A stretch of 64,000 nucleotides of DNA, taken from positions 558,001-622,000 of the forward strand of contig NW_027138903.1 of assembly GCF_035084215.1 (NCBI RefSeq), given 5' to 3'. The position numbers were made by a program, and so were the translations under genes. The stretch's first letter is position 1; the number at the start of each line of letters is the position of its first letter. Of the stretch, positions 35,769 to 64,000 are shown piece by piece. Source of the DNA: Heptranchias perlo (Eukaryota). The notes under the pieces are model-generated. The model worked only from the letters and a program-made list of their open reading frames with translations. It ran no database searches and had not been told where the DNA came from.

Positions 35769-35780
35769 AGTTTCGCTTTC
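35769..35780 (+). promoter_or_regulatory. ISRE of the B2M promoter
   Basis: AGTTTCGCTTTC matches the ISRE consensus AGTTTCNNTTTC and lies upstream of the X-Y module, as in MHC class I and B2M promoters. Confidence 0.85.
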
Positions 35781-35808
35781 TCTGCTCTGCTCACACTCCC
35801 CCGATTCA

Positions 35809-35872
35809 CAAACTCTACAGCGGCGTTTTACCCGGAGACCGATGACCCATACCGTGCGGATACAGTGATTGG
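35809..35872 (+). promoter_or_regulatory. SXY (RFX/CREB/NF-Y) enhanceosome module of B2M
   Basis: X1 CCCGGAGACCGATG (35831-35844), X2-like TGACCCA, a 20-bp spacer, then Y GTGATTGG (35865-35872). A weak S-like CAAACTC lies at 35809-35815. Confidence 0.8.
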
Positions 35873-35887
35873 TTCCCATGCGGCAGT

Positions 35888-35970
35888 GGGCGGGGCGGAG
35901 CTCGGCTCCTTTTTTTCTGATTGGTGTTTAGGCGGCTGTTTGTTGCCGTTTAATCGGGAACCCAGGAAGT
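35888..35970 (+). promoter_or_regulatory. B2M proximal promoter elements: GC boxes, second inverted CCAAT, ETS site
   Basis: GGGCGGGGCGG (35888-35898), CTGATTGG (35917-35924) and CAGGAAGT (35963-35970) in a CpG-rich segment. No obvious TATA box. Confidence 0.6.
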
Positions 35971-36347: not shown

Positions 36348-36396
36348 ATGCTGATGATCGTAGTCCTGGCCTCGCTCCTGGCCACCTGCCTGGCGG
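36348..36396 (+). CDS. B2M: B2M coding exon 1 (signal peptide MLMIVVLASLLATCLA + 1 nt)
   Basis: Hydrophobic leader after ACAATCATG. It ends in a strong phase-1 donor G|GTAAGT and joins exon 2 in frame (G+AT=Asp). Confidence 0.88.
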
Positions 36397-36537
36397 GTAA
36401 GTGTCCGTGGTGTGAAGGAGCAGCCCGGGGTGGGAGGGCGGTCGGTCGGCACCGGAGTCCCCGGGGCTGCCCCCCTGTTGCTGCTTTTAGGAAATCATTT
36501 TTAGCAAATAATTTACAATACAGATAGGGGTCATTCA

Positions 36538-37710
36538 CCCCATTGCCCCCTGTACCCTCTCTCTGAAAGAGATCACCCCTTAGTCCCATTCCCTGCCCTT
36601 TCCTTATCGCCCCCTGTACCCTCTCTCTGAAAGAGATCACCCCTTAGTCCCATTTCCTGCCCTTTCCTTATCGCCACCGTGCCCTCTCTCTGAGATCACC
36701 CCCTTAGTCCCATTCCCTGCCCTTTCCCTATCGCCACCGTGCCCTCTCTCTGAAAGAGATCACCCCTTAGTCCCATTCCCTGCCCTTTCCCTATCGCCAC
36801 CGTGCCCTCTCTCTGAAAGAGATCACCCCTTAGTCCCATTTCCTGCCCTTTCCTTATCGCCACCGTGCCCTCTCTCTGAGATCACCCCCTTAGTCCCATT
36901 CCCTGCCCTTTCCCTATTGCCACTGTGCCCTCTCTCTGAGATCACCCCCTTAGTCCCATTCCCTGCCCTTTCCTTATCGCCACTGTGCCCTCTCTCTGAG
37001 ATCACCCCCTTAGTCCCATTCCCTGCCCTTTCCTTATCGCCACTGTGCCCTCTCTCTGAAAGAGATTATCCCTTAGTCCCATTCCCTGCCCTTTCCCTAT
37101 TGCCACTGTGCCCTCTCTCTGAGATCACCCCCTTAGTCCCATTCCCTGCCCTTTCCTTATCGCCACCGTGCCCTCTCTCTGAGATCACCCCCTTAGCCCC
37201 ATTCCCTGCCCTTTCCCTATTGCCACTGTGCCCTCTCTCTGAGATCACCCCCTTAGCCCCATTCCCTGCCCTTTCCCTATTGCCACTGTGCCCTCTCTCT
37301 GAGATCACCCCCTTAGTCCCATTCCCTGCCCTTTCCCTATTGCCACTGTGCCCTCTCTCTGAGATCACCCCCTTAGTCCCATTTCCTGCCCTTTCCCTAT
37401 CGCCACCGTGCCCTCTCTCTGAAAGAGATCACCCCTTAGTCCCATTCCCTGCCCTTTCCCCATCGCCCCCCTGTGCCCTCTCTCGGAAAGAGTTCGCCCC
37501 CCCCCCCTTAGTCCCATTCCCTGCCCTTACCCTATCGCCGTCATGCCCTCTCTCTGAGATCCCCCCCCCTTAGTCCCATTCCCTGCCCTTACCCTATCGC
37601 CGTTATGCCCTCTCTCTGAGATCACCCCCTTAGTCCCATTCCCTGCCCTTTCCCCATTGCCACCATGCCCTCTTTCTGAAAGAGATTATCCCTTAGTCCC
37701 ATTCCCTGCC
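36538..37710. repeat. ~60-62-bp pyrimidine-rich minisatellite in B2M intron 1
   Basis: Unit GAGATCACCCCCTTAGTCCCATTCCCTGCCCTTTCCCTATTGCCACTGTGCCCTCTCTCT. Confidence 0.95.
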
Positions 37711-38227
37711 AAAATGCCAGTAGACTGAGCTTTGACACTGCAGGGAGCAGTGAATGAGTCACCAGATTTATAGTTCGGAATGGAGGAGGAACCCATTACT
37801 TTCTGAAGGGGGATCACTGTGGAATGGAGAAGTTTGGACAATGCTTAGGGGGTCCTTATTGCTTTTCCCCAGATAATGTTGAATTTATGAAACCCCCAAC
37901 CCCCCAGGACAGATTCCTTCTGCCTGCTAAACATAGCCATTGTGTAAATGTGTTTGCGAGTTTGGTACACACAGTGAACAGGAAACCCATTCCCAAGGGT
38001 TGGGTTTGTGCTGTTATGACACAGAGTGACCAGAGGTTTCCCATTAGAGCTGTGCACTTAAATCACCAGAACTCCTCAACTTCTTCAAACCTTCCTTCCG
38101 TTTTCTTCAGATATCAGTTCAGCCTTTTACTTTTGTCTTTCTTCTCGCACTGTTTATTTTGTTTTCAGTATCCTGTTCTTCTCACCACTATTACTCCACA
38201 CTGCACTCTTCTTTTTCACCAATGTCA

Positions 38228-39145
38228 GTGGGACTGAGTGATCCCAGTCAATGTACAGATATCTCCCAGAGAGTGGGACTGGGAGACCCAATGTGTGTAC
38301 AGATATCTCCCAGAGAGTGGGACTGGGAGACCCAATGTGTGTACAGATATCTCCCAGAGAGTGGGACTGGGAGACCCAATGTGTGTACAGATATCTCCCA
38401 GAGAGTGGGACTGGGAGACCCAATGTGTGTACAGATATCTCCCAGAGAGTGGGACTGGGAGACCCAATGTGTGTACAGATATCTCCCAGAGAGTGGGACT
38501 GGGAGACCCAATGTGTGTACAGATATCTCCCAGAGAGTGGGACTGGGAGACCCAATGTGTGTACAGATATCTCCCAGAGAGTGGGACTGGGAGACCCAAT
38601 GTGTGTACAGATATCTCCCAGAGAGTGGGACTGGGAGACCCAATGTGTGTACAGATATCTCCCAGAGAGTGGGACTGGGAGACCCAATGTGTGTACAGAT
38701 ATCTCCCAGAGAGTGGGACTGGGAGACCCCAGTCAGTGTATGGATTTCTCCCAGAGAGTGGGACTGGGAGACCCAATGTGTGTACAGATATCTCCCAGAG
38801 AGTGGGACTGGGAGACCCCAGTCAGTGTATGGATTTCTCCCAGAGAGTGGGACTGGGAGACCCCAGTCAGTGTATGGATTTCTCCCAGAGAGTGGGACTG
38901 GGAGACCCCAGTCAGTGTATGGATTTCTCCCAGAGAGTGGGACTGGGAGACCCCAGTCAGTGTATGGATTTCTCCCAGAGAGTGGGACTGGGAGACCCCA
39001 GTCAGTGTATGGATTTCTCCCAGAGAGTGGGACTGGGAGACTCCAGTCAGTGTATGGATTTCTCCCAGAGAGTGGGACTGGGAGACCCCAGTCAGTGTAT
39101 GGATTTCTCCCAGCCCTAGTGTCTGGGAGACCCCAGTCAGTGTTG
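38228..39145. repeat. 44/45-bp minisatellite in B2M intron 1
   Basis: 44-bp unit TGTGTACAGATATCTCCCAGAGAGTGGGACTGGGAGACCCAATG on the left and a 45-bp variant on the right. Confidence 0.95.
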
Positions 39146-39209
39146 GTGTTGGATTTGAATGCAGTTGGTATTAATTTGCACTCACCCCGTCCCTCCTGTG
39201 TGTCCCTAG

Positions 39210-39482
39210 ATGCTCCCGAGGTACAGATCTATACCTACAAACCTGCTAAGGATGGAGAGTTAAACGTTCTGCTCTGCCATGCCAAACGTTTCAGCCCCCC
39301 TAACATCAAGCTGCAGCTGTTGGAGGATGGAAAAATCATGTCTGAAGCCAAACAGACTGACCTCTCCTTCGAGTCAGACTGGAGTTTCAAGCTGACCACG
39401 TTTGTGGATTTTGTCCCCAAGAGCGGAATGAAGTATACCTGCAAGGTTGAACATGGCAGCGCCTCCAGAGACCTGCAGTGGG
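39210..39482 (+). CDS. B2M: B2M coding exon 2 (Ig C1-set domain)
   Basis: Acceptor CCCTAG| and donor G|GTGAGT, 273 nt, phase 1-1. Encodes (D)APEVQIYTYKPAKDGELNVLLCHAKRFSPPNIKLQLLEDGKIMSEAKQTDLSFESDWSFKLTTFVDFVPKSGMKYTCKVEHGSASRDLQW, with the B2M hallmarks PxVQxY, NxLxC, FxPPxI, DLSFxxDWSF, YxCxVxH and terminal W. Confidence 0.97.
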
Positions 39483-39791
39483 GTGAGTAATCTGTCTGTT
39501 CATCGTGGATAGAGTGCATCAACGTCCGCAGCTCGCACACCCAACTCAATCCTCCACACACATTCTGGTAAACACAGACTCCTCCTCAACCGAACATCTG
39601 GCATCAACCCCTCGATTAGATTCCAGCCTGTAACTCACTCCATTATCCTATATATAAACCATCAGAACCGCTTGGGTACTATTGCACATTTAATTTTCCC
39701 CTGTATAAAGAGCATGTACAGTAACAGGTTACACTGACAGAGTTCCTGTGGCTCAGTGATTTCGCAAATCATTTGAGCTTTGAGCACAGCA

Positions 39792-40135
39792 AGACAATGA
39801 CCAGAGAATCTGTCTTGGGTGTTAATTGAGGGATAAATATTGGGCCCAGGACCTGGAGAGATCTCCCCTACTCTTCTTCGAAATAGTGCCTTGGGATCTT
39901 TTACATCCACCTGAGAGCACAGACGGGGCCTCGGTTTAACATCTCATCTGGTAAACTGCACCCCCGCCAGAGCAGCGCCCCCTCAGTGCTGGCCCCCCGA
40001 CAGGGCAGCATTTCCTCAGTATTGCCCTGAAATGTCAGCCTAGATTGTGTGTTCAAGTCTCCTGGAGTGGGGTTTGAACCCACAACCTTCTGACTCAGAA
40101 GCGTGCATGCTACCCACTGAGCCATGGCTGACACC
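39792..40135 (-). mobile_element. tRNA-derived Deu-domain SINE (SacSINE1/AmnSINE1-related) in B2M intron 2
   Basis: Minus strand has Pol III A box TGGCTCAGTGG (40114-40124) and B box GGTTCAAACC (40071-40080). These are followed by a Deu-like core (TTAAACCGAGGCCCCGTCTG...CAGGTGGATGTAAAAGATCCCA...GCACTATTTCGAAGAAGAG...AATATTTATCCCTCAA). Confidence 0.85.
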
Positions 40136-40249
40136 TAAAATCACACTGTTACAGAGTAATCAACACTCTGGATACAATCTCTGTGCAATGTCTATCTGAA
40201 GATGCTGACCTGTTTATCTCACTCATTAATCCAGGCAGATTTCTTTCAG

Positions 40250-40540
40250 AACATAATATTTTGGGGTCCAGTATATGAGTAATTTGAGACATGACATGTG
40301 GTGAGTGTAACAGGCTGGGGAGGAACAGGTGACTTTGGATCTACGGTTCCTAAATCTCTCCACCACTGGGGGTTTTCCTCACCTCATGTCTGGGTCTGTT
40401 GTAGACACATTGATGGAGACTGATTGCTCTGATTAATCAACAACTCCATTATCGTTGTATCATGTGATTACCAGGATGGTAGAAGGCGGACTTGATGGGC
40501 CCTGGTCTTTCTCCATCCAGTAATTCCGATATTCCTAAAT
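40250..40540 (+). mobile_element. Probable degenerate retroposon 3' fragment with a CR1-like tail
   Basis: Ends in GGACTTGATGGGCCCTGGTCTT...ATTCCGATATTCCTA, which resembles CR1 3' hairpin/tail motifs. The family and the 5' boundary are uncertain. Confidence 0.35.
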
Positions 40541-40650
40541 GGGAATTGAAGCCTGAGTGACTGGAGACACTCGGCAGGTGTGTGTTATGGGAATTGACCT
40601 CTTGTTGGTCACAGACTAATGATGATGTTTCTTTCTGCTTTCACCCACAG

Positions 40651-40667
40651 ACATGAATGGCTATTAA
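40651..40667 (+). CDS. B2M: B2M coding exon 3 (DMNGY-stop; exon continues as UTR to 40686)
   Basis: Polypyrimidine tract plus CCCACAG| acceptor. G+AC ATG AAT GGC TAT TAA gives W-D-M-N-G-Y* (human ends WDRDM*). Donor GAG|GTAAGT at 40686/40687. Confidence 0.88.
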
Positions 40668-40784
40668 CTAGCCTGCCGCAGCAGAGGTAAGTACTATCTC
40701 ACAGCTCAGCCATGGTTACTGAAGGGACGTGTTTCAGCACAACATTCAAACGCCACGCACTTTCTTCCTCTTTTTGTTTTGCAG

Positions 40785-41880
40785 CCACTGGACACCGCAG
40801 TGAGACTATTGAATGAATCGATCACTTCCGGTTCAACATCTTTCCAGATTGAAACTTTTAAAATGAATAAATAAATTGATATTGGTGTTGATCTACTTGT
40901 TTGCTTTTGGTTCTGTAATCTCTGTCATTTATGCCCTGGATTTCTCACTCAGGCTGGGCATGGTTTTAGCGTATTGACCAGGTCTGCCAGTGAAATTGTG
41001 AAGAGCTGTCCCATTAGATTTGAAATTTCACTCCCAGCTGCTCCACAGGGGCTGGGATCCCCTGTAAATTAACACAAAAGCAGGAAATGAGAGTAAGTAA
41101 AGCCCAGTGAAACTCTCAGCCGATTCATATATCACCTCGTTATAGGCTGCAAACAGAAGCATTAGGAGTTGCCAGGATCTCTCCTTCTGATGATAGTCTG
41201 TTGAGAGTTAGAGACCTCAATTTCCCAAGTGTGAGGTATCTGAGGGAGGAACCCAGGACAACTCCACTCAAATAGTTTGAAGATTTTATATCAGTGTTTG
41301 GTTTAATTTTGAAGCTTTTGTTTTTCTGAACTGCAAGCAGCATATGCTCATCTTATTCCCTGCTCTGTTTACCTGAGTACCCCACACAGCAGGAGTCACA
41401 GCAACTTCTGTCTGTAACAGCCCCAGACCTCACAGCTGAGTGTCCCATGGCTCCTGTTCTGGATATTGGGGTTCTGTTCCATTTGGAATCTCTCAGGTCA
41501 GAGAGCACTCACCCCATCTGCCCTTTTCCCACCTGGCTTCCATTCCACCCCGCTGATTCCCCGGGGAACCCTGCAACGTTTTAGGGGAATATCAGGCTAG
41601 TTTGGTGCCTTGGAGTGTTTTGAGGTGTTGGGGCCTCACGGTTTGCTGTAGTATAGAGATTAACGGCACATATTAACTTTTGGAGTGCCTTCTGTAAATC
41701 ATTAGTCTAGTTAAGAACTCAACGCTGAATATTGTGAACTTATGCAACTGGGAATTGTGGGATTCAGAGTATAATGCTATTGATAAGAATTAGCTTTGAA
41801 TTTTGTGTAATGCATGCACAATTCTCTGCTGTTCTCTGTATGCTGAATGGTATGAATAAAATATTCCTCCTTTATCTCCT
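40785..41880 (+). other. B2M: B2M non-coding exon 4 (3' UTR) with two candidate poly(A) signals
   Basis: Acceptor TTTTTGTTTTGCAG| at 40784/40785. AATAAA at 40866-40871 and 41855-41860, each followed by T/GT-rich sequence. The 3' end is uncertain. Confidence 0.7.
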
Positions 41881-45471: not shown

Positions 45472-45493
45472 AGTAATGTGATGCTCAGTGATA

Positions 45494-46695: not shown

Positions 46696-46703
46696 GGTAT
46701 GGC

Positions 46704-49935: not shown

Positions 49936-51006
49936 TATAACTATAGTCTGAGAGTGCGATCACAGGGGCAAACTCTGCACAGTATAACTGCAGTCTGGAA
50001 TTGAGATCACAGGGCGAAACGGTATACAGTATAACTACATTCTTAGTTTGAGATAGGATTAAACAGTGTAAACTATAACTATAGTCTGAGAGTGAGATAA
50101 CAGGGTTAAACCGTGTACAGTATAACTACAGTCTGAGAGTGAGAACAGTGTTAAACCGTGTACAGTATAACTACAGTGTGGAAGTGAGATCGCAGGGTTA
50201 AACATGTACAGTATATCTGCAGTCTGAGACTGTGAACACAGGGTTAAAGAGCAAATTGTATAATTTCAACCTGGGAGTGAGATCACAGGGTTAAACAGTG
50301 TACACTATAACTACAGTCTGAGAGTGAGATCACAGGGTTAAACAGTGTACACTATAACTACAGTCTGAGAGTGAGATCACAGGGTTAAACAGTGTACACT
50401 ATAACTACAGTCTGAGAGTGAGATCACAGGGTTAAACAGTGTACACTATAACTACAGTCTGAGAGTGAGATCACAGGGTTAAACAGTGTACACTATAACT
50501 ACAGTCTGAGAGTGAGATCACAGGGTTAAACAGTGTACACTATAACTACAGTCTGAGAGTGAGATCACAGGGTTAAACAGTGTACACTATAACTACAGTC
50601 TGAGAGTGAGATCACAGGGTTAAACAGTGTACACTATAACTACAGTCTGAGAGTGAGATCACAGGGTTAAACAGTGTACACTATAACTACAGTCTGAGAG
50701 TGAGATCACAGGGTTTAACAGAGTACAGTAGAATTATAGTCTGAGAGTGAGATCACAGGGTTTAACAGAGTACAGTAGAATTATAGTCTGAGAGTGAGAT
50801 CACAGGGTTTAACAGAGTACAGTAGAATTATAGTCTGAGAATGAGTTCACAGGTCTAATCAGTGTACAGTATAAGTACAGTCTAAGACTGAGATCACAGG
50901 ATTAAACTGTGCACAGTATAATTACTATCTGGGTGAGATGACAGGGTTAAACAGTGTGCAGTGTATCTACCGTCTGAGACTGAGATCACAGGGTTAAACC
51001 GTGTAC
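49936..51006 (+). repeat. 47-bp minisatellite, left block
   Basis: Unit CAGGGTTAAACAGTGTACACTATAACTACAGTCTGAGAGTGAGATCA, homogeneous in the centre and degenerate at the edges. Confidence 0.95.
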
Positions 51007-51270
51007 TTTTTTTAAAATTTGTTCATGGGATGTGGGCATTGCTGGCGAGGCCAGCATTTATTGCCCATCCCTGATTGCCCTTGAGAAGGTGGTGGTGAGC
51101 TGCCTTCTTGAACCGCAGCAGTCCGTGTGGTGAAGGTTCTCCCACAGTGCTGTCAGTTAGGGAGTTCCAGGATTTTGACCCAGTGACGATGAAGGAACGG
51201 CGATATATTTCCAAGTCGGTATGGTGTGTGACTTGGAGGGGAACGTGCTGGTGGTGTTGTTCCCATGTTG

Positions 51271-51680
51271 CTTCACCACACGGACTGCAGCGGTTCAAGA
51301 AGGCGGCTCACCACCACCTTTTCAAGGGCAATTAGGGATGGGCAATAAATGCCGGCCTCGTCAGCGACGCCCACATTCCATGAACAAATAAAAAAAAAGT
51401 ACACAGTTTAACCCTGTGATCTCAGTCTCAGACGGTAGATACACTGCACACTGTTTAACCCTGTGATCTCACTTTCAGACTGTAGTTATACTGTACAAAG
51501 TTTACCCTATGATCTCACTGCCAGACTGTAGTTATACTGTTCACTGTTTAACCCTGTGATCTCACTCACAGATTGTAGCTATGCTCTTCACTGTTTAACC
51601 CTATGATCTCACTCCCAGACTAGTTATACTGTACATAATTTAACCCTGTGATCTCACTCTCAGACTGTAGCTATACTGTA
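51271..51680. repeat. Inverted copy of the LINE tail plus inverted 47-bp array units
   Basis: 51271-51472 is the reverse complement of 50933-51135, and further inverted 47-bp units run to ~51680. Confidence 0.88.
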
Positions 51681-51687
51681 ACAAAAT

Positions 51688-52182
51688 TTATATATCAATG
51701 ATTTGGATGAGGGAACTAAATGTAACATTTCCAAGTTTGCAGACGACACAAAGCTGGGGTGGAATGTGAGCTATGAGGATGATGCAAAGAGGCTCCAATG
51801 TGATTTAGACAAGTTGGGTGAGTGGGCAAGAACATGGCAGATGCAGTATAACGTGGATAAATGTGAGGTTATCCACTTTGGTTGTAAAAACAGAAAGGCA
51901 GATTATTATCTGAATGGTGATAGATTGGGAAAAGGGGAGGTGCATTGAGACCTGGATGTCCTTGTACACCAGTCGCTGAAAGCGAGCATTCAGGTGCAGC
52001 AAGCAGTTAGGAAGGCGAATGGTATGTTGGCCTTCATTGCAAGAGGATTTGAGTACAGGAGCAGGGATGTCTTACTGCAATTATACGGGGCCTTGGTGAG
52101 ACCACATCTGGAGTATTGTGTGCAGTTTGGCTCTCCTTATCTGAGGAAGGATGTCCTTGCCATGGAGGCAGTACAACGAAGG
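51688..52182 (+). mobile_element. CR1 LINE internal fragment truncated at both ends
   Basis: YINDLDEG...[10 protein letters not shown]...LVRPHLEYCVQF...MEAVQRR; no 3' tail. Confidence 0.9.
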
Positions 52183-52260
52183 TGCTGCTCTTGTCCTTCT
52201 AGGTGGTAGAGGTCACGGGTTTGGGAGGTGCTGTCGAAGAAGCCTTAGCGAGTTGCTGCA

Positions 52261-53718
52261 GTGCCTGAAGATTGGAGGGTAGCAAATGTTGTGCCTTTGT
52301 TTAAGAAGGGCGGCAGGGAAAAGCCTGGGAACTACAGACCAGTGAGCCTGACATCTGTAGTGGGTAAGTTGTTAGAGGGTATTCTGAGAGACAGGATCTA
52401 CAGGCATTTGGAGAGGCAGGGACTGATTAGGAACAGTCAGCATGGTTTTGTGAGAGGAAAATCATGTCTCACGAATTTGATTGAGTTTTTTGAAGGGGTA
52501 ACCAAGAAGATAGATGAGGGCTGTGCAGTAGACGTGGTCTACATGGACTTTAGCAAAGCCTTTGACAAGGTACCGCATGGTAGGTTGTTACATAAGGTTA
52601 AATCTCACGGGATCCAAGGTGAGGTAGCCAATTGGATACAAAATTGGATTGACGACAGAAGACAGAGGGTGGTTGTAGAGGGTTGTTTTTCAAACTGGAG
52701 GCCTGTGACCAGCGGTGTGCCTCAGGGATCGGTGCTGGGTCCGCTGTTATTTGTTATTTATATTAATGATTTGGATGAGAATTTAGGAGGCATGGTTAGT
52801 AAGTTTGCAGATGACACCAAGATTGGTGGCATTGTGGACAGTGAAGAAGGTTATCTAGGATTGCAATGGGATCTTGATAAATTGGGCCAGTGGGCCGATG
52901 GAGTTTAATTTAGATAAATGTGAGGTGATGCATTTTGGTGGATCGAATCGGGCCAGGACCTACTCCGTTAATGGTAGGGCGTTGGGGAGAGTTATAGAAC
53001 AAAGAGATCTAGGAGTACAGGTTCATAGCTCCTTGAAAGTGGAGTCACAGGTGGATAGGGTGGTGAAGAAGGCATTCAGCATGCTTGGTTTCATTGGTCA
53101 GAACATTGAATACAGGAGTTGGGATGTCTTGTTAAAGTTGTACAAGACATTAGTAAGGCCACACTTGGAATACTGTGTACAGTTCTGGTCACCCGATTAT
53201 AGAAAGGATATTATTAAACTAGAAAGAGTGCAGAAAAGATTTACTAGGATGCTACCGGGACTTGATGGTTTGACTTATAGGGAGAGGTTGGATAGACTGA
53301 GACTTTTTTCCCTGGAGAGTAGGAGGTTTAGGGGTGATCTTATAGAAGTCTATAAAATAATGAGGGGCATAGATAAGGTCGATAGTCAAAATCTTTTCCC
53401 AAAGGTAGGGGAGTCTATAACGAGGGGGCATAGATTTAAGGTGAGAGGGGAGAGATACAAAAGGGTCCAGAGGGGCAATTTTTTCACTCAAAGGGTGGTG
53501 AGTGTCTGGAACGAGCTGCCAGAGGCAGTAGTAGTGGCGGGTACAATTTTGTCTTTTAAAAAGCATTTGGACAGTTACATGGGTAAGATGGGTATAGAGG
53601 GATATGGGCCAAGTGCAGGCAATTGGGACTAGCTTAGTGGTATAAACTGGGCGACATGGACATGTTGGGCCGAAGGGCCTGTTTCCATGTTGTAAACTTC
53701 TATGATTCTATGATTCTA
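52261..53718 (+). mobile_element. CR1 LINE (RT domain to 3' tail) nested in the minus-strand LINE
   Basis: [37 protein letters not shown]; one frameshift near 52900; (TTCTATGA)n tail. Confidence 0.95.
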
Positions 53719-55276
53719 TCCTGTGGATGGTACACACTGCAGCCACGGAGCGCCTGTGGTGAAGGGAGTGAATGTTTAGGGCGGTGGATGGGGTGCCAAT
53801 CAGTCGGGCTGCTTTGTCCTGGATGGTGTCGAGCTTCTTGAGTGTTGTCGGAGCTGCACTTATCCAGGCAAGTGGAGAGTATTCCATCATACTCCTGACT
53901 TGTGCCTTGTAGATGGTCGAAAGGCTTTGGGGAGTCAGGAGGTGAGTCACTCACCGCAGAATACATAGCCTCTGGTCTGCTCTTGTAGCCATAGTATGTA
54001 TATGGATGATCCAGTTAAGTTTCTGGTCAATGGTGACCCCCAGGATGTTGATGGTGGGGGATTCGGCGATGGTAATGCTGTTCAATGTCAAGGGGAGGTG
54101 GTTAGACTCTCTCTTGTTGGAGATGGTCATTGCCTGGCACTTGTCTGGCGCAAATGTTACTTGTCACTTATCAGCCGAAGCCTGGATGTTGTCCAGGTCT
54201 TGCTGCATGCGGGCTCGGACTGCTTCATTATTTGAGGGTTTATGCGAATGGAACTGAACACTGTGCAATCATCAGCGAACATCCCCATTTCTGACCTTAT
54301 GATGGAGGGAAGGTCATTGATGAAGCAGCAGAAGATGGTTGGGCCTAGGCCACTGCCCTGAGGAACTCCTGTAGCAATGTCCTGGGGCTGAGATGATTGG
54401 CCACCTTCCTTTGTGCTAGGTATGACTCCAGCCACTGGAGAGTTTTCCCCCTGATTCCCATTGACTTCAATTTTACTAGGGCTCCTTGGTGCCATACTCG
54501 GTCAAATGCCGCCTTGATGTCAAGGGCAGTCACTCTCACCTCATCTCTGGAATTCAGCTCTTTTGTCCATATTTGGACCAAGGCTGTAATGAGGTCTGGA
54601 GCCGAGTGGTCCTGGCGGAACCCAAACTTAGCATCAGTGAGCAGGTTATTGGTGAGTAAGTGCCACTTGATAGCACTTTCGACGACACCTTCCATCACTT
54701 TGCTGATGATTGAGAGTAGACTGATGGGGCGGTAATTGGCCGGATTGGATTTGTCCTGCTTTTTGTGGACAGAACATACCTGGGCAATTTTCCACATTGA
54801 CGGGTAGATGCCAGTGTTGTATCTGTACTGGAACAGCTTGGCTAGAGGCGCAGCTAGTTCTGGTGCACAAGTCTTCAGTACTACAGCCAGGATGTTGTTG
54901 GGGCCCATCGCCTTTGCTGTATCCAGTGCACTCAGCCGTTTCTTGATATCACGTGGAGTGAATCGAATTGGCTGAAGACTGGCTTCTGTGATGGTGGGGA
55001 TATCGGGAGGAGGCCGAGATGGATCATCCACTCAGCACTTCTGGCTGAAGATGGTTGCAAATGCTTCAGCCTTGTCTTTTGCACTCACGTGCTGGACTCC
55101 GCCATCATTGAGGATGGGGATGTTTACAGAGCCTCCTCCTCCCGTTAGTTGTTTAATTGTCCACCACCATTCACGACTGGATGTGGCAGGACTGCAGAGC
55201 TTTGATCTGATCCGTTGGTTGTGGAATCGCTTAGCTCTGTCCATAGCATGTTGCTTCCGCTGTTTAGCATGCATCT

Positions 55277-55640
55277 GCAACAACAGTCTGAGACTGAGAT
55301 CACAGGGTTAAACTGTGTACTGTGCAACTACAGTCTGAGTCTGAGAACACAGGCTTAAACAGAGCACAGTGTAACTCTGAGACTGAGAACACAGGGTTAA
55401 AGAACGTATAGTATAACTTCAGCCTGGGAGTGAGATCACAGGGTTAAACAACATACAGTATAACTACAGTCTGAGAGTGAGATTACAGGATTAAACATTG
55501 TACAGTGTCACTACAGTCTGAGAGTGAGATCACAGGGCTAAACAGTGAACAGTATAACTACAATCTGGGAGTGAGATCACGGGTTAAACAGTGAACAGTG
55601 TAACTACAGTCCGAGAGTGAGATCACAGGGTTAAACATTG
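55277..55640 (+). repeat. 47-bp minisatellite, right block
   Basis: Same unit and orientation as 49936-51006, more degenerate. Confidence 0.92.
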
Positions 55641-55801
55641 TATCGGATTGTAAGGTTTGTTACTCTGTTGTCTCCAGTCAATCTCCTGTGTCTGGGGTCG
55701 AGCCATTATATTGTAGACGGTACAGTGTCTGTGAGTGAAACCTTTTCTTGCATCATACTTACTGAGATCCTGTCATTCTCAGTTGATGCTCGTGTTTATG
55801 T

Positions 55802-55981
55802 CCCCGCCCTGCTCCACCCCCGCTCTGTCACCCTCAGTGATATTCTTGATCTTTGTTTCCTGCTCTGTTATTTGCCCCTGAGACTTCCTGGGACTTTCCA
55901 CAACAGCATTATCTGATCGGTGCTCCAAATCAACAGTGTGCTGCTGGGGAGGGCGGAGACTTGCTGGCTCAGGGAATTACC
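55802..55981. promoter_or_regulatory. Candidate regulatory island (ETS + NF-kB + GC boxes)
   Basis: ACTTCCTG (55883-55890) overlaps a perfect kB site GGGACTTTCC (55890-55899). Also CCCCGCCC at 55802, GGGCGG at ~55951 and kB-like GGGAATTACC at 55972. Confidence 0.4.
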
Positions 55982-56027
55982 GGAAAGTTCAAACCCGGGA
56001 CCAGCTCCATTCACCAGATACTGAGAC

Positions 56028-56195
56028 CTCTCCTCAGGTACTGTCCCCCTCCCCTTCAAATCTGCCGTCATCACCCCACTCCTCAAAATACACACCCTTG
56101 GCCCCTCTGTTCCTGCCCCATCTCCAACCTCCCTTTCCTCTCCAAAGTCCTTAAACGTGTTGTCGCCTCCCAAATCTGTGCTCATCTTTCCCGCC
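56028..56195 (+). mobile_element. L2-clade LINE RT fragment
   Basis: LSSGTVPLPFKSAVITPLLK...PISNLPFLSKVLKRVVASQI is typical of L2 ORF2. Confidence 0.7.
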
Positions 56196-56196
56196 A

Positions 56197-57398
56197 GAAA
56201 TCCCAAGAAAACTAATATTGAATCGGGGACAGGGATTCGATGAAATTAACATAAGTAAAGCAACAGTAAAGAAAATAATAGCACTGAAGAGTGACAAATC
56301 CCCAGGACCAGATGGTTTCCATCCCAGGGTTTTAAAGGAAGTAGGTGAGCACATTGCGGATGCCCTAACTATAATCTTTCAAAGTTCTCTAGATTCAGGA
56401 ACTGTCCCTCTAGATTGCAAAATTGCACATGTCACTCCGCTTTTTAAGAAAGGAGAGAGAGGGAAACCAGGGAATTATAGACCAGTTAGCCTAACATCTG
56501 TTGTGGGGAAAATGCTGGAGTCTATAATTAAGGATAGGGTGACTGAACACCTCGAGAATTTTCAGTTAATCAGAGAGCCAGCATGGATTTGTGAAAGGTA
56601 GGTCGTGCCTGACAAACCTGAATTTTTTGAAGAGGTGACTAAAGTAGTGGGCAGGGGAATGTCAATGGATGTTATTTTTATGGACTTCCAGAAGGCATTT
56701 GATAAGGTCCCACATAAGAGACTGTTAGCTAAGATAGAAGCCCATGGAATCGAGGGAAAAGTACAGACTTGGTTAGGAAGTTAGCTGAGCGAAAGGCGAC
56801 AGAGAGTAGGGATAATGGGTAGGTACTCACATTGGCAGGATGTAGCTAGTGGAGTCCCGCAGGGATCTGTCTTGGGGCCTCAATTATTCACAATATTTAT
56901 TAACGACTTAGATGAAGGCATAGAAAATCACATATCTAAGTTTGCCGATGACACAAAGATTGGTGGCATTGTAAGCAGGTAGATGAAAACATAAAATTAC
57001 AAAGCGATATTGATAGATTAGGTGAATGGGCAAAACTGTGGCAAATGGAATTCAATGTAGACAAATGTGAGGTCATCCACTTTGGATCAAAAAAGGATAG
57101 AACAGGGTACTTTCTAAATGGTAAAAAGTTAAAAACAGTGGATGTCCAAAGGGACTTAGGGGTTCAGGTACATAGATCATTGAAGTGTCATGAACAGGTG
57201 CAGAAAATAATCAAGAAGGCTAATGGAATGCTGGCCTTTATATCTAGAGGACTAGAGTACAAGGGGGCAGAAGTTATGCTGCAGCTATACAAAACCCTGG
57301 TTAGACCGCACCTGGAGTACTGTGAGCAGTTCTGGGCACCGCACCTTCGGAAGGACATATTGGCCTTGGAGGGAGTGCAGCGTAGGTTTACTAGAATG
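56197..57398 (+). mobile_element. CR1 LINE RT fragment, 3'-truncated at the GT-rich array
   Basis: [51 protein letters not shown]...VQRRFTRM; several frameshifts and stops. Confidence 0.93.
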
Positions 57399-59655
57399 AG
57401 TGTGGGAGTGAGTGTGTGAGAATGTGTTTGTGTGTGAGTGAGTATGTATGAGAATGTGTTTGTGTGTGAGAATGTGTTTGTGTGTGAGAATGTGTTTGTG
57501 TGTGAGTGTGGGAGTGAGTGTGTGAGAATGTGTTTGTGTGTGAGAATGTGTTTGTGTGTGAGAATGTGTTTGTGTGTGAGTGTGGGAGTGAGTGTGTGAG
57601 AATGTGTTTGTGTGTGAGTGTGGGAGTGAGTGTGGGAGTGAGTGTGTGAGAATGTGTTTGTGTGTGAGAATGTGTTTGTGTGTGAGTGTGGGAGTGAGTA
57701 TGTGAGAATGTGTTTGTGTGTGAGTGAGTGTGTGAGAATGTGTTTGTGTGTGAGTGAGTGTGTGTGAGAATGTGTTTGTGTGTGAGTGTGGGAGTGAGTG
57801 TGTGAGAATGTGTTTGTGTGGGAGTATGTGTGAGAATGTGTTTGTGTGTGAGAATGTGTTTGTGTGTGAGTGTGGGAGTGAGTATGTGAGAATGTGTTTG
57901 TGTGTGAGTGAGTGTGTGAGAATGTGTTTGTGTGTGAGTGAGTGTGTGTGAGAATGTGTTTGTGTGTGAGTGTGGGAGTGAGTGTGTGAGAATGTGTTTG
58001 TGTGTGAGTGTGGGAGTGAGTATGTGAGAATGTGTTTGTGTGTGAGTGAGTGTGTGAGAATGTGTTTGTGTGTGAGTGAGTGTGTGTGAGAATGTGTTTG
58101 TGTGTGAGTGTGGGAGTGAGTGTGTGAGAATGTGTTTGTGTGGGAGTGTGGGAGTGAGTGTGTGAGAATGTGTTTGTGTGTGAGTATGGGAGTGAGTGTG
58201 TGTGGGAATGTGTTTATGTGTGAGTGTGGGAGTGAGTGTGTGAGAATGTGTTTGTGTGTGAGTGTGGGAGTGAGTGTGTGTGAGAATGTGTTTGTGTGTG
58301 AGTGTGGGAGTGAGTGTGTGAGAATGTGTTTGTGTGTGAGTGAGTATGTGTGAGAATGTGTTTGTGTGTGAGAATGTGTTTGTGTGTGAGTGTGGGAGTG
58401 AGTGCGTGAGAATGTGTTTGTGTGTGAGTGTGTGAGTGAGTGTGTGTGAGAATGTGTTTGTGTGTGAGTGTGGGAGTGAGTGTGTGAGAATGTGTTTGTG
58501 TGTGAGTGTGGGAGTGAGTGTGTGTGAGAATGTGTTTATGTGTGAGTGTGGGAGTGAGTGTGTGAGAATGTGTTTGTGTGTGAGTGTGGGAGTGAGTGTG
58601 TGAGAATGTGTTTGTGTGTGAGTGTGGGAGTGAGTGTGTGAGAATGTGTTTGTGTGTGAGTGTGGGAGTGAGTGTGTGTGAGAATGTGTTTATGTGTGAG
58701 TGTGGGAGTGAGTGTGTGAGAATGTGTTTGTGTGTGAGTGTGGGAGTGAGTGTGTGAGAATGTGTTTGTGTGTGAGTGTGGGAGTGAGTGTGTGAGAATG
58801 TGTTTGTGTGTGAGTGTGGGAGTGAGTGTGTGAGAATGTGTTTGTGTGTGAGTGTGGGAGTGAGTGTGTGAGAATGTGTTTGTGTGTGAGTGTGGGAGTG
58901 AGTGTGTGAGAATGTGTTTGTGTGTGAGTGTGGGAGTGAGTGTGTGTGAGAATGTGTTTATGTGTGAGTGTGGGAGTGAGTGTGTGAGAATGTGTTTGTG
59001 TGTGAGTGTGGGAGTGAGTGTGTGAGAATGTGTTTGTGTGTGAGTGTGGGAGTGAGTGTGTGAGAATGTGTTTGTGTGTGAGTGTGGGAGTGAGTGTGTG
59101 AGAATGTGTTTGTGTGTGAGTGTGGGAGTGAGTGTGTGAGAATGTGTTTGTGTGTGAGTGTGGGAGTGAGTGTGTGAGAATGTGTTTGTGTGTGAGTGTG
59201 GGAGTGAGTGTGTGTGAGAATGTGTTTGTGTGTGAGTGTGGGAGTGAGTGTGTGAGAATGTGTTTGTGTGTGAGTGTGGGAGTGAGTGTGTGAGAATGTG
59301 TTTGTGTGAGAATGTGTTTGTGTGAGTGTGGGAGTGAGTGTGTGAGAATGTGTGAGTGTGGGAGTGAGTGTGTGAGAATGTGTTTGTGTGAGAATGTGTT
59401 TGTGTGAGTGTGGGAGTGAGTGTGTGAGAATGTGTGAGTGTGGGAGTGTGGGAGTGAGTGTGTGAGAATGTGTTTGTGTGTGAGTGAGTGTGTGAGAATG
59501 TGTTTGTGTGTGAGTGTGGGAGTGAGTGTGTGTGAGAATGTGTTTGTGTGTGAGTGTGGGAGTGAGTGTGTGTGAGAATGTGTTTGTGTGTGAGTGTGTG
59601 AGTGAGTGTGTGACAATGTGTTTGTGTGCAAGTATGCGAGAGTGAGTGTGTGTAG
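57399..59655. repeat. GT-rich ~38-40-bp compound minisatellite
   Basis: Unit GAGAATGTGTTTGTGTGTGAGTGTGGGAGTGAGTGTGT with variable TG counts; almost no C on the + strand. Confidence 0.95.
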
Positions 59656-59748
59656 TGGAGTTTGACATGTTGCTATTGTCACACAAATAAGAGTGTGTTT
59701 TGCGCTCTCTCTCGGGCTCTCACATGGTTGATCATTTCTGAGAGCTAT

Positions 59749-59873
59749 TTCTGGGAATCAGTGTGGCAGAAAGTCCCTGTGACGGAGAGTGTGAGCTTTC
59801 AGTTTCAGGGTATACCGTACAGTCCAACCAACCAATAGAAATCAGACAGTCCGCAGCATCAGCAGTTACTGTG
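59749..59873. promoter_or_regulatory. Interferon/NF-kB/MHC-type regulatory cluster (GAS, kB, ISRE, inverted X-Y module)
   Basis: GAS TTCTGGGAA 59749-59757; kB GGGACTTTCT (minus) 59768-59777; ISRE GAAACTGAAAGC (minus) 59795-59806; CCAAT 59832-59836; X-like CACAGTAACTGCTG (minus) 59860-59873, 20 bp from the Y octamer. Confidence 0.65.
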
Positions 59874-59974
59874 TAAACCCTACAATCCATCTGCTGTTCC
59901 TATCACTCCCGGGGGGTAAACTCAGGCACAACATGAAGGTCATGTTCCTCTCCCTCTCCCTTGCCCCCTCCCCC

Positions 59975-62900
59975 CTCTCTCTCGATCTCGCCCTCTCCCT
60001 CTCCCGATCTCGCCCTCTCCCTCTCTCGATCTCGCCCTCTCCCTCTCTCGATCTCGCCCTCTCCCTCTCTCGATCTCGCCCTCTCCCTCTCTCAATCTCG
60101 CCCTCTCCCTCTCCCGATCTCGCCCTCATCCTCTCCCGATCTCGCCCTCATCCTCTCCCGATCTCGCCCTCTCCCTCTCCCGATCTCGCCCCCTCCCTCT
60201 CCCGATCTCGCCCTCTCCCTCTCCCGATCTCGCCCCCTCCCTCTCCCGATCTCGCCCTCTCCCTCTCTCTCGATCTCGCCCTCTCCCTCTCTCGATCTCG
60301 CCCTCTCCCTCTCCCGATCTCGCCCTCTCCCTCTCTCGATCTCGCCCTCATCCTCTCCCGATCTCGCCCTCTCCCTCTCTCGATCTCGCCCTCTCCCTCT
60401 CCCGATCTCGCCCCCTCCCTCTCCCGATCTCGCCCCCTCCCTCTCCCGATCTCGCCCCCTCCCTCTCCCTCTCCCGATCTCGCCCTCATCCTCTCCCGAT
60501 CTCGCCCTCTCCCTCTCCCGATCTCGCCCCCTCCCTCTCCCGATCTCGCCCCCTCCCTCTCCCGATCTCGCCCCCTCCCTCTCCCTCTCCCGATCTCGCC
60601 CTCTCCCTCTCTCGATCTCGCCCTCTCCCTCTCCCGATCTCGCCCCCTCCCTCTCCCTCTCCCGATCTCGCCCCCTCCCTCTCCCTCTCCCGATCTCGCC
60701 CTCATCCTCTCTCGATCTCGCCCTCTCCCTCTCTCGATCTCGCCCTCTCCCTCTCTCGATCTCGCCCTCTCCCTCTCTCGATCTCGCCCTCTCCCTCTCT
60801 CGATCTCGCCCTCTCCCTCTCTCGATCTCGCCCTCTCCCTCTCCCGATCTCGCCCTCATCCTCTCCCGATCTCGCCCTCTCCCTCTCTCGATCTCGCCCT
60901 CTCCCTCTCTCGATCTCGCCCTCTCCCTCTCTCGATCTCGCCCTCTCCCTCTCTCGATCTCGCCCTCTCCCTCTCCCGATCTCGCCCTCATCCTCTCCCG
61001 ATCTCGCCCTCTCCCTCTCTCGATCTCGCCCCCTCCCTCTCCCGATCTCGCCCCCTCCCTCTCCCGATCTCGCCCCCTCCCTCTCCCTCTCCCGATCTCG
61101 CCCTCTCCCTCTTCCGATCTCGCCCTCTCCCTCTCTCGATCTCGCCCTCTCCCTCTCCCGATCTCGCCCTCTCCCTCTCCCGATCTCGCCCTCTCCCTCT
61201 CCCGATCTCGCCCTCTCCCGATCTCGCCCTCTCCCTCTTCCGATCTCGCCCTCTCCCTCTCTCGATCTCGCCCTCTCCCTCTCCCGATCTCGCCCTCATG
61301 CTCTCCCGATCTCGCCCTCTCCCTCTCTCGATCTCGCCCTCTCCCTCTCTCGATCTCGCCCTCTCCCTCTCTCGATCTCGCCCTCTCCCTCTCCCTCTCC
61401 CGATCTCGCCCTCTCCCTCTCCCGATCTCGCCCTCATCCTCTCCCGATCTCGCCCTCTCCCTCTCTCGATCTCGCCCTCTCCCTCTCTCGATCTCGCCCT
61501 CTCCCTCTCTCGATCTCGCCCTCTCCCTCTCCCGATCTCGCCCTCTCCCTCTCTCGATCTCGCCCTCTCCCTCTCTCGATCTCGCCCTCTCCCTCTCCCG
61601 ATCTCGCCCTCTCCCTCTCTCGATCTCGCCCTCTCCCTCTCTCGATCTCGCCCTCATCCTCTCCCGATCTCGCCCTCATCCTCTCCCGATCTCGCCCTCT
61701 CCCTCTCCCGATCTCGCCCTCTCCCTCTCTCGATCTCGCCCTCTCCCTCTCCCGATCTCGCCCTCTCCCTCTCCCGATCTCGCCCTCTCCCTCTCTCGAT
61801 CTCGCCCTCTCCCTCTCTCGATCTCGCCCTCTCCCGATCTCGCCCTCTCCCTCTCTCGATCTCGCCCTCATCCTCTCTCGATCTCGCCCTCTCCCTCTCT
61901 CGATCTCGCCCCCTCCCTCTCCCGATCTCGCCCTCTCCCTCTCCCGATCTCGCCCTCTCCCTCTCTCGATCTCGCCCTCATCCTCTCCCGATCTCGCCCT
62001 CTCCCTCTCCGATCTCGCCCTCTCCCTCTCCCGATCTCGCCCTCTCCCTCTCCCGATCTCGCCCTCTCCCTCTCTCGATCTCGCCCTCTCCCTCTCTCGA
62101 TCTCGCCCCCTCCCTCTTCCGATCTCGCCCTCAACCTCTCCCGATCTCGCCCTCTCCCTCTCCCGATCTCGCCCCCTCCCTCTCTCGATCTCGCCCCCTC
62201 CCTCTCCCGATCTCGCCCCCTCCCTCTCTCGATCTCGCCCTCTCCCTCTCCCGATCTCGCCCTCTCCCTCACCCGATCTCGCCCCCTCCCTCTCTCGATC
62301 TCGCCCTCTCCCTCTCCCGATCTCGCCCTCTCCCTCTCCCGATCTCGCCCTCTCCCTCTCCCGATCTCGCCCTCTCCCTCTCCCGATCTCGCCCTCTCCC
62401 TCCTCCCTCTTCCGATCTCGCCCTCTCCCTCTCTCGATCTCGCCCTCTCCCTCTCCCGATCTCGCCCTCTCCCTCTCCCGATCTCGCCCTCTCCCTCTCT
62501 CGATCTCGCCCTCTCCCTCTCCCGATCTCGCCCCCTCCCTCCCTCGATCTCGCCCTCTCCCTCTCCCGATCTCGCCCTCTCCCTCTCCCGATCTCGCCCC
62601 CTCCCGATCTCGCCCCTCCCTCTCTCGATCTCGCCCTCTCCCTCTCCCGATCTCGCCCTCTCCCTCTCTCGATCTCGCCCTCTCCCTCTCCCGATCTCGC
62701 CCTCTCCCTCTCTCGATCTCGCCCCCTCCCTCTCCCGATCTCGCCCTCTCCCTCTCCCGATCTCGCCCTCTCCCTCTCCCGATCTCGCCCTCTCCCTCTC
62801 CCGATCTCGCCCTCTCCCTCTCCCTCTCTCGATCTCGCCCTCTCCCTCTCTTGATCTCGCCCCCTCCCTCTTCCGATCTCGCCCTCTCCCTCTCTCGATC

Positions 62901-64000
62901 TCGCCCTCTCCCTCTCCCGATCTCGCCCCCTCCCTCTCTCGATCTCGCCCTCTCCCTCTCCCGATCTCGCCCTCTCCCTCTCTCGATCTCGCCCTCTCCC
63001 TCTCCCGATCTCGCCCTCTCCCTCTCTCGATCTCGCCCTCTCCCTCTCCCGATCTCGCCCCCTCCCTCTCTCGATCTCGCCCTCTCCCTCTCCCGATCTC
63101 GCCCCCTCCCGATCTCGCCCCCTCCCTCTCTCGATCTCGCCCTCTCCCTCTCCCGATCTCGCCCTCTCCCTCTCTCGATCTCGCCCTCTCCCTCTCCCGA
63201 TCTCGCCCTCTCCCTCTCTCGATCTCGCCCCCTCCCTCTCTCGATCTCGCCCTCTCCCTCTCTCGATCTCGCCCTCTCCCTCTCCCGATCTCGCCCTCTC
63301 CCTCTCCCGATCTCGCCCCCTCCCTCTCTCGATCTCGCCCTCTCCCTCTCTCGATCTCGCCCTCTCCCTCTCCCGATCTCGCCCTCTCCCTCTCCCGATC
63401 TCGCCCCCTCCCTCTCCCGATCTCGCCCTCTCCCTCTCCCGATCTCGCCCTCTCCCTCTCCCGATCTCGCCCCTCCCTCTTCCGATCTCGCCCTCATCCT
63501 CTCCCGATCTCGCCCTCTCCCTCTTCGATCTCGCCCTCATCCTCTCCCGATCTCGCCCTCTCCCTCTCCCGATCTCGCCCCCTCCCTCTCCCGATCTCGC
63601 CCTCTCCCTCTCCCGATCTCGCCCTCTCCCTCTCCCGATCTCGCCCCCTCCCTCTTCCGATCTCGCCCTCATCCTCTCTCGATCTCGCCCTCTCCCTCTC
63701 CCTCTCCCGATCTCGCCCCCTCCCTCTCCCGATCTCGCCCTCATCCTCTCCCGATCTCGCCCCCTCCCTCTCCCGATCTCGCCCCCTCCCTCTTCCGATC
63801 TCGCCCTCATCCTCTCCCGATCTCGCCCTCATCCTCTCCCGATCTCGCCCTCTCCCTCTCTCGATCTCGCCCCCTCCCTCTTCCGATCTCGCCCTCTCCC
63901 TCTCCCGATCTCGCCCTCTCCCTCTCCCGATCTCGCCCCCTCCCTCTCTCGATCTCGCCCCCTCCCTCTCCCGATCTCGCCCTCTCCCTCTCTCGATCTC
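59975..64000. repeat. 22-bp polypyrimidine minisatellite, open at the right window edge
   Basis: Unit CGATCTCGCCCTCTCCCTCTC(C/T). Confidence 0.97.

What the first reader, a model, noticed from the sequence alone, without database searches (positions are those of the whole stretch)
59749..59975. Orphan interferon/MHC enhanceosome cluster ~24 kb downstream of the B2M promoter, with an inverted X-20-Y module
Seen: a ~300-bp unique island between two minisatellites holds, within 125 bp, a perfect GAS (TTCTGGGAA), a 9/10 kB site, an ISRE (GAAACTGAAAGC) and a CCAAT box. On the minus strand an X-like box (CACAGTAACTGCTG, 2 mismatches to CCYAGNRACNGATG) sits exactly 20 bp from the Y octamer, the same spacing as in the B2M promoter but in opposite orientation. 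An ATG follows at 59933 (MKVMFLSLSLA..., leader-like) and runs into the 22-bp array. Known: kB-ISRE-SXY combinations mark MHC class I pathway genes (NLRC5/RFX targets such as class I, B2M, TAP1/PSMB9); inverted S'-Y' modules act as distal enhancers at mammalian MHC class II loci; shark B2M is MHC-linked. Inference: this is either the promoter of a neighbouring antigen-presentation gene with exons beyond the array, or a distal enhancer co-regulating B2M in a primordial MHC. No convincing S box was seen.
Basis: partly seen in the sequence, partly recalled or inferred. Interest (0 to 1): 0.78.

Follow-up and report, generated by a model that had tools for sequence, protein, structure and literature searches.

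The report
Candidate interferon enhancer beside shark B2M
A short stretch of DNA downstream of a shark's beta-2-microglobulin gene carries a cluster of interferon-response and MHC-type control sites; it is probably a distant enhancer of a kind known from mammalian MHC regions, but its activity and target gene are untested.

Summary
The cluster is real and beyond chance. In 13,530 non-tandem bases the only two ISREs and the only two X-20-ATTGG modules lie in the B2M promoter and in this 324-bp island; the only strict GAS is here too. Corrections: the kB site is uninformative, 'CCAAT' and 'Y' are the same five bases, only the ATTGG core of Y matches, and there is no S box in register. The leader-exon reading fails. 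After ATG 59933 the + strand has GT only at 59939 and 59944 up to 64000, and the hydrophobic stretch is the edge of the 22-bp array. No MHC or Ig domain lies to the left. In three of three annotated elasmobranchs the next named gene 3' of B2M is BRD2. The island is single-copy in a same-sample DNA run, which shows a T>G difference inside the X core. Best reading (0.5): an IFN-gamma-responsive RFX/NF-Y distal enhancer, more CIITA-type than NLRC5-type. Boldest reading (0.08): a relic class II-type promoter at the position where lungfish and bat DMA stand. Conservation and activity are untested.

The parts
59653..59976 (.). Non-tandem island between two minisatellites; CpG-poor (o/e 0.38, like local background; B2M promoter 0.84)
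   Evidence: one 417-bp contig of same-sample DNA run X4 covers it whole and no second contig reaches 80% identity over 59653-59938
59749..59757 (.). GAS, candidate STAT1 site
   Evidence: only strict TTCYNRGAA in 13,530 non-tandem bp; 386 of 20,000 shuffles
59768..59777 (-). kB-like site, 1 mismatch; not distinguishable from chance
   Evidence: 6,311 of 20,000 shuffles; 46 strand hits in window
59795..59806 (-). ISRE / IRF element
   Evidence: one of two in the non-tandem window, the other in the B2M promoter; 39 of 20,000 shuffles
59832..59839 (-). Y-box position: ATTGG core (= the CCAAT box on +), candidate NF-Y site; 5' three bases do not fit the Y octamer
59854..59861 (-). X2 position (TGATGCTG), as in mouse H2-Eb X2 region; candidate CREB/ATF site
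   Evidence: published H2-Eb primer, alignment
59860..59873 (-). X1 box, candidate RFX site, preceded by TTTA as in the B2M module; T>G difference at 59867 (box position 7) in run X4
59723..59735 (-). ATG (59735, 96 bp past the Y core) and best donor-like site of the island (59723, score 81): possible minus-strand first exon of four codons; unverified
59903..59939 (+). Initiator-like TCACTCC (59903), ATG 59933, weak donor 59939 (score 73): possible plus-strand first exon ending Met-Lys; unverified
57397..59652 (.). 38-bp minisatellite, left flank; begins where a CR1-like LINE fragment stops
59977..64000 (.). 22-bp minisatellite, right flank; no GT or AG on the + strand
35769..35926 (+). B2M promoter: ISRE 35769-35780, weak S-like 7-mer 35809-35815 (4 of 7 to H2-K S at spacer 15), X 35831-35844, Y 35865-35874, second ATTGG box 35917-35926
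36348..40871 (+). B2M gene: ATG 36348, donor 36397, exon 2 39210-39482, exon 3 from 40651, last exon to about 40870; nearest identified candidate target

Best explanation
A distal, interferon-gamma-responsive enhancer in the shark B2M-(BRD2) interval. Inferred mechanism: STAT1 binds the GAS and IRF1 the ISRE after IFN signalling; RFX on X1, CREB/ATF on X2 and NF-Y on the ATTGG core assemble cooperatively because the 20-bp X-Y spacing is the one the MHC enhanceosome needs; this platform recruits CIITA (more likely than NLRC5, since no class I S box is present), opens a nucleosome-free patch between the arrays and loops to the B2M promoter 24 kb away and/or to BRD2 or class II promoters to the right. 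Shown here: the motifs, their spacing, their rarity, single copy in one individual, no adjacent MHC exon. Inferred: every binding event, inducibility, looping and the target.
For: Only ISRE and only X-20-ATTGG module outside the B2M promoter, and only strict GAS, in 13,530 bp; ISRE plus X-Y in 0 of 20,000 shuffles. X-Y spacing of 20-22 bp marks occupied modules in mouse (PMC4374748). Not a multi-copy repeat at 80% identity in run X4. No exon of an MHC-type gene on either side that these tests could see; BRD2 is next in 3 of 3 annotated elasmobranchs, 32-87 kb past B2M. CpG-poor. Mammalian precedent: distal S-Y and XL elements bind RFX/CIITA and act as enhancers (PMC7866136; PMC2677874); S-Y modules work in reverse orientation (PMC1802633); three CIITA targets have X/X2 without an evident S box (PMC2278383); IFN-gamma adds CIITA binding associated with BRD2 in human monocytes (PMC4243378). 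Whale shark has CIITA and NLRC5 orthologs (PMC8455134).
Against: No S box in register (best 4 of 7 at spacer 14, 5 of 7 at spacer 20). Y octamer degenerate. A T>G difference at position 7 of the X box in the same individual's run X4 raises mismatches from 2 to 3, and it is the only difference in 324 bp; this suggests weak constraint, or an allelic regulatory variant. The likeness to H2-Eb is modest: 55 of 5,000 shuffles reach the score, and the B2M promoter control scores higher at its second CCAAT (7 of 5,000). Classical ChIP at human BRD2 was only 2-3 fold and scored negative (PMC2278383). Genome scans give many unoccupied SXY matches when constraints are relaxed (173 against 15). BRD2 being next in this species is inferred from other species, and B2M neighbours vary among elasmobranchs apart from brd2.
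Confidence: 0.5

Rival explanations
1. Proximal promoter of a plus-strand transcript: GAS, ISRE and CCAAT at about -155, -105 and -70 from an initiator at 59903-59909, with a short first exon ending at 59915 or 59938, spliced across the 22-bp array to BRD2 (an inducible upstream first exon) or to another interferon-induced gene. The first reader's version, a signal-peptide exon of an antigen-presentation gene, takes at most 0.03 of this.
For: CCAAT lies about 70 bp before an initiator-like 7-mer; the ATG has a purine at -3; the ISRE has the same strand orientation as in the B2M promoter; mouse Tap1 and Psmb9 share one NLRC5 peak, so one of them presumably reads the module inverted (inference).
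Against: Both donors are weak (70 and 73 against 88-97, scored with recalled frequencies). No donor can close a leader; the frame stays open for 973 low-complexity codons through the array. Initiator-like 7-mers also occur three times on the minus side.
Confidence: 0.2
2. A class II-type promoter read on the minus strand (X, then Y, then start site near 59770), now driving only a non-coding RNA or nothing: the orphan of a class II gene lost from the upstream side of BRD2.
For: In MHC promoters the module points towards the start site, 50-100 bp downstream. An ATG lies 96 bp past Y, within the 92-152 bp seen in 7 bat class II genes, followed by the island's best donor (81). X1-X2 resembles H2-Eb. 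In bat and lungfish DMA lies 5' of BRD2 and points away from it, the geometry this module would have. Sawfish has an uncharacterized antisense locus in the same interval.
Against: The minus-strand exon would hold four codons, not a leader. No class II or Ig remnant in 42 frames to the left or by tblastn with B2M exon 2 (best non-self E 1.2). DM is reported absent from cartilaginous fish and late-emerging. ISRE and GAS would lie downstream of Y. The sawfish locus begins at the BRD2 5' end, not mid-interval.
Confidence: 0.15
3. A chance cluster, or a decayed element without current function, left as a remnant between two expanding minisatellites.
For: kB is noise; Y is degenerate; S is absent; the X core differs in run X4. 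Motifs were chosen after the fact.
Against: ISRE and X-Y co-occur in 0 of 20,000 shuffles. Assuming independence, (39/20,000) x (10/20,000) x 46 tiles is about 5e-5 for the window before counting the GAS (arithmetic). The site is 24 kb from a gene that uses the same two elements.
Confidence: 0.15

Closest known systems
Distal S'-Y' enhancers and X-box-like (XL) elements of the human MHC class II region (DRA -2.3 kb, elements #2/#4/#6/#8, XL9)
   Same: Intergenic X1-X2-Y arrangement with constrained spacing in an MHC class II-linked interval; CpG-poor; no adjacent gene body found.
   Different: No S box in register; Y reduced to its core; joined to an ISRE and a GAS within 125 bp; no binding or activity data; shark, beside B2M.
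MHC class I / B2M proximal promoter (kB-ISRE-S-X-Y, NLRC5-dependent)
   Same: ISRE and X-20-Y, as in this window's B2M promoter.
   Different: Order differs: the ISRE lies on the Y side, not 5' of X. No class I S box, X1-X2 closer to H2-Eb than to H2-K (55 against 389 of 5,000 shuffles), no leader exon.
MHC class II proximal promoter (mouse H2-Eb; DMA beside BRD2)
   Same: X1-X2 letters and Y spacing; would point away from BRD2 as DMA does in bat and lungfish.
   Different: No S box, no class II exons downstream.
TAP1/PSMB9-type interferon promoters (ISRE plus GAS; shared SXY peak)
   Same: GAS plus ISRE plus X-Y in one short stretch; trout PSMB9a needs both ISRE and GAS.
   Different: No gene found on either side; shark TAP/PSMB genes sit in the class Ia region; not CpG-rich.

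Membership tests
MHC S-X-Y module (class II or distal S'-Y') | X1 box resembling the RFX site | tested here: met
   2 mismatches to a recalled 14-bp consensus; 3 in the X4 allele
MHC S-X-Y module (class II or distal S'-Y') | X2 (CRE-like) site directly after X1 | tested here: inconclusive
   matches the H2-Eb X2 region but no match to TGACGTCA within 2 mismatches
MHC S-X-Y module (class II or distal S'-Y') | Y box 20-22 bp after X, same strand | tested here: met
   ATTGG core at spacer 20; rest of octamer degenerate
MHC S-X-Y module (class II or distal S'-Y') | S box about 15-16 bp before X | tested here: not met
   0-2 of 7 to either mouse S 7-mer at spacers 15-16; 4 of 7 at 14, 5 of 7 at 20. 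The shark S consensus is unknown; B2M's own scores only 4 of 7.
MHC S-X-Y module (class II or distal S'-Y') | In vivo RFX/NF-Y/CIITA occupancy and enhancer activity | not testable with these tools
   no ChIP, ATAC or reporter data
NLRC5-dependent class I pathway promoter | Class I S box in register | tested here: not met
   requirement from PMC4374748
NLRC5-dependent class I pathway promoter | ISRE and kB 5' of S-X-Y on the way to the start site | tested here: not met
   ISRE and kB lie 3' of Y in module orientation
MHC class I/II/W gene exon 1 | Signal-peptide exon closed by a phase-1 GT donor (as B2M exon 1 here) | tested here: not met
   GT only at 59939 and 59944 from 59933 to 64000
MHC class I/II/W gene | C1-set exon downstream of the promoter | tested here: inconclusive
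   absent to the left (0 of 42 frames, positive control found); right of 64000 not available
High-copy repeat | Many related copies in the genome | tested here: not met
   1 of 19 laid contigs covers 59653-59938; the other 18 add depth only from 59939, the CT-rich end (7 of them shown, 31-32 bp). Copies under 80% identity would be missed.

The most novel reading that the evidence does not exclude
The island is the surviving class II-type promoter of a gene that once stood 5' of BRD2 and pointed away from it, the position held by DMA in lungfish and mammals. It was kept in sharks as an interferon-wired enhancer for B2M after the gene was lost, or it is the ancestral element beside which DM later arose. 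That would be a cis-regulatory fossil of the primordial MHC, tying B2M, BRD2 and the class II/DM lineage to one CIITA-type element older than the shark-bony fish split.
Probability: 0.08. Interest if true: 0.8.

Novelty: new variant of a known kind. Interest (0 to 1): 0.45.

Why it matters
B2M linkage to the class II region and BRD2 is taken as the ancestral MHC arrangement (PMC10751288), but why it was kept in sharks is open. A shared distal element answering to IFN-gamma and RFX/CIITA would give a regulatory reason and a 130-bp object to test. It would also date distal X-Y enhancers to the base of jawed vertebrates. In five literature searches (listings and abstract starts only) no title or abstract described shark MHC promoter or enhancer motifs; the library lacks most subscription papers, so this is weak. 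If inactive, it is only a motif coincidence next to an ordinary B2M gene.

Tried and rejected
No whole genome is held, so nothing right of 64000 could be read. Sequencing runs: no RNA holder listed; 4 DNA holders from one sample and one study, 3 marked as possible source. Three runs guessed to be RNA laid 0 contigs on the island; this is no evidence on expression either way. Earlier findings: none by place, sequence or words. Metagenome pattern scan for ISRE-CCAAT-X2 gave 13 loci, none similar to the island beyond the pattern (best E 0.57): chance. A search of 1.84 billion representative proteins with one of the island's six frames (minus, 55 aa) gave 2 borderline hits, one a kinase-TPR protein matching at 31% and one with no Pfam family and no passing stretch: rejected. 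A search for longer relatives of B2M exon 2, meant to fetch shark class I/II/W leaders, scored 0 of 19 candidates, so no leader comparison was made. Island as a duplicate of the B2M promoter: blastn of the promoter against the window found no island match. W-category pair: head-to-head in sharks, but no left-hand gene here; the held supplements had no 'MKV' or 'brd2' hit, though their residues are split into cells, and the SI Appendix figures on W and B2M linkage were not seen. Interruptions of the left 33-bp array as exons of a minus-strand gene: all three are one CR1-like fragment. Ohta et al. 2011 is not held. Search for a mammalian B2M distal enhancer with six required terms found 0 papers.

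Full report
Setting. The window is mostly minisatellite and LINE sequence. It holds one recognisable gene, B2M on the + strand: ATG 36348, exon 2 at 39210-39482, exon 3 from 40651. Exon 2 is a C1-set domain whose best solved relatives are three B2M chains at E 7e-37, well ahead of the other B2M chains; that these are nurse shark chains is my recall. The finding lies in a 324-bp island, 59653-59976, between a 38-bp and a 22-bp array, 18.8 kb past the end of B2M. No whole genome is held.

Observation. All named motifs are at the stated places. In 13,530 non-tandem bases the ISRE pattern occurs twice and the X-(18-22)-ATTGG pattern twice, each once in the B2M promoter and once in the island, both with a spacer of 20; the strict GAS occurs only in the island. 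In 20,000 shuffles of the island's first 294 bases, X-20-ATTGG arose 6 times, the 12-bp ISRE 39 times, the strict GAS 386 times, and ISRE with X-Y never. Assuming independence, ISRE plus X-Y has an expectation near 5e-5 for the 46 island-sized tiles of the window. Three points are overstated. The kB match is noise (6,311 of 20,000 shuffles; 46 strand hits). The CCAAT box and the Y box are the same bases. The Y octamer keeps only ATTGG. No S box is in register against the mouse H2-K or H2-Eb 7-mers: 0-2 of 7 at spacers 15-16, 4 of 7 at 14, 5 of 7 at 20; the B2M promoter itself scores only 4 of 7 at 15.

Copy number and variation. In DNA run X4, from the same sample as the likely source runs and so not independent, one 417-bp contig at depth 50.4 covers the island and runs over both ends; the other 18 laid contigs add depth only at the CT-rich end. 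The island is therefore not a repeat family at 80% identity or more. That contig differs at one place, 59867 T>G, position 7 of the X box, whereas runs X1-X3 hold all 32 sampled words of the window version. I infer a heterozygous site. It adds a third mismatch in the RFX core, which counts against strong constraint, though it could also be a regulatory allele.

The leader exon. From ATG 59933 to 64000 the + strand has GT only at 59939 and 59944. An exon could end after Met-Lys (phase 0, donor score 73) but not after the hydrophobic run; B2M's own donors score 88-97 and its leader exon ends in phase 1 (scores use recalled frequencies). Bases 59947-59976 align to the 22-bp unit at about 80-83%, so most of the 'leader' is array. 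To the left, 42 frames over seven non-tandem segments from 40900 to 59976, read through stops, gave reverse-transcriptase hits and one sub-threshold phage-tail hit, and no Ig or MHC domain; the B2M control frame gave C1-set. In the supplement of PMC10751288 the next named gene 3' of B2M is BRD2 on the same strand in white shark (gap 68 kb), catshark (87 kb) and sawfish (32 kb); only sawfish has a locus in between, uncharacterized and antisense. The paper says B2M neighbours vary except for brd2. BRD2 to the right is thus an inference for this species.

Which kind of module. Against the published H2-Eb reverse primer, the island aligns from CCAAT through X2 and X1 with 28 of 37 columns identical; 55 of 5,000 shuffles reach that score, against 389 of 5,000 for the H2-K primer. 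The control weakens this: the B2M promoter scores higher with the H2-Eb primer at its second CCAAT (7 of 5,000), and the H2-K primer did not pick out B2M's own X-Y (4,969 of 5,000). I treat class II likeness as a lead. In mouse, NLRC5 needs its S box and prefers 20-22 bp between X and Y. Three validated CIITA targets have X/X2 with no evident S. CIITA is therefore the likelier co-activator. Whale shark has orthologs of both. The island is CpG-poor (0.38 against 0.84 for the B2M promoter).

Mechanism and rivals. Best reading (0.5): a distal enhancer. IFN-gamma brings STAT1 to the GAS and IRF1 to the ISRE; RFX, CREB/ATF and NF-Y assemble on X1, X2 and Y and recruit CIITA; the element loops to B2M and perhaps BRD2 or class II promoters. 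Only the anatomy is shown; binding, induction and target are inferred from mammalian work on distal S-Y and XL elements. Human data at BRD2 are mixed: IFN-gamma-induced CIITA intervals associated with BRD2 in monocytes, but a weak, negative-scored ChIP at its promoter. Rival 1 (0.2): a plus-strand promoter with CCAAT about 70 bp before an initiator-like 7-mer at 59903 and a very short first exon. Rival 2 (0.15): a minus-strand class II-type promoter, with an ATG 96 bp past Y and the island's best donor (81) four codons later, now orphaned. Rival 3 (0.15): chance or decayed.

Boldest reading. In bat, the DMA S-X-Y lies 17 kb 5' of BRD2 and points away from it; in lungfish DMA is likewise divergent from and directly before BRD2; axolotl keeps DM with BRD2. 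If BRD2 follows here, the island's X-Y has the same side and orientation. Sharks lack DM. The island could be a relic or forerunner of that promoter, kept as an enhancer. No coding remnant supports this, and one of two orientations would match by chance; I give it 0.08.

Membership and novelty. It works like a distal X-Y enhancer but fails the S-box test, so I do not file it as an S-X-Y module, and it fails the class I promoter and leader-exon tests. As an S-less X-Y joined to ISRE and GAS in a shark MHC interval it would be a new variant of a known kind. Interest 0.45: a clean, testable candidate, with no conservation or activity data.

Papers, as seen. PMC10751288: passages, part 2 of 7 of the text, supplement searches and parts 4, 10, 18 of 98. 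PMC8713811: passages and a search of 3 held supplements, not the SI Appendix figures on W and B2M linkage, which may bear on gene order. Passages only: PMC4374748, PMC2278383, PMC1802633, PMC8010645 (41 no hits), PMC7573153, PMC5437515, PMC7866136, PMC4243378, PMC2677874, PMC8455134, PMC12619710. Ohta 2011, Krawczyk 2004 and Gomez 2005: seen only as citations. Searches: listings only.

Noticed in passing
window 3676-4700, 9301-10325, 12251-13275: Three copies of one ~1-kb CR1-like LINE 3' fragment, 99.5-99.9% identical, interrupt the 32.5-kb 33-bp array at the same unit position: probably one insertion amplified with the array as a higher-order repeat.
   Followed up: partly
window 55890-55899 and 55972-55981: A perfect kB site (GGGACTTTCC) and a 1-mismatch site 82 bp later, in a stretch (55643-56020) without a Pfam hit, 3.7 kb left of the island; a better NF-kB candidate than the island's own site.
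   Followed up: no
window 42717-43298 and 46108-46703; arrays 43571-44861 and 47228-49888: A 596-bp inverted duplication at 95% identity, with two 48-bp arrays also in opposite orientation, starting 2 kb past B2M.
   Followed up: no
window 35988-36321: A 22/33-bp tandem array lies between the B2M promoter boxes and the ATG at 36348, probably lengthening the 5' UTR by about 330 bases.
   Followed up: no
window 35769-35926: The shark B2M promoter has a full ISRE, an X box with 1 mismatch, a Y box 20 bp later and a second perfect CTGATTGG; its X looks by eye like the mouse H2-D promoter primer. No kB or GAS site was found in it.
   Followed up: partly
window 59867: T>G difference in same-sample run X4 inside the X-box core; a possible heterozygous regulatory variant.
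   Followed up: partly
window 57396-57397: A CR1-like reverse-transcriptase fragment stops exactly where the 38-bp array starts and does not visibly resume on the far side, suggesting a deletion or rearrangement at the array just left of the island.
   Followed up: no
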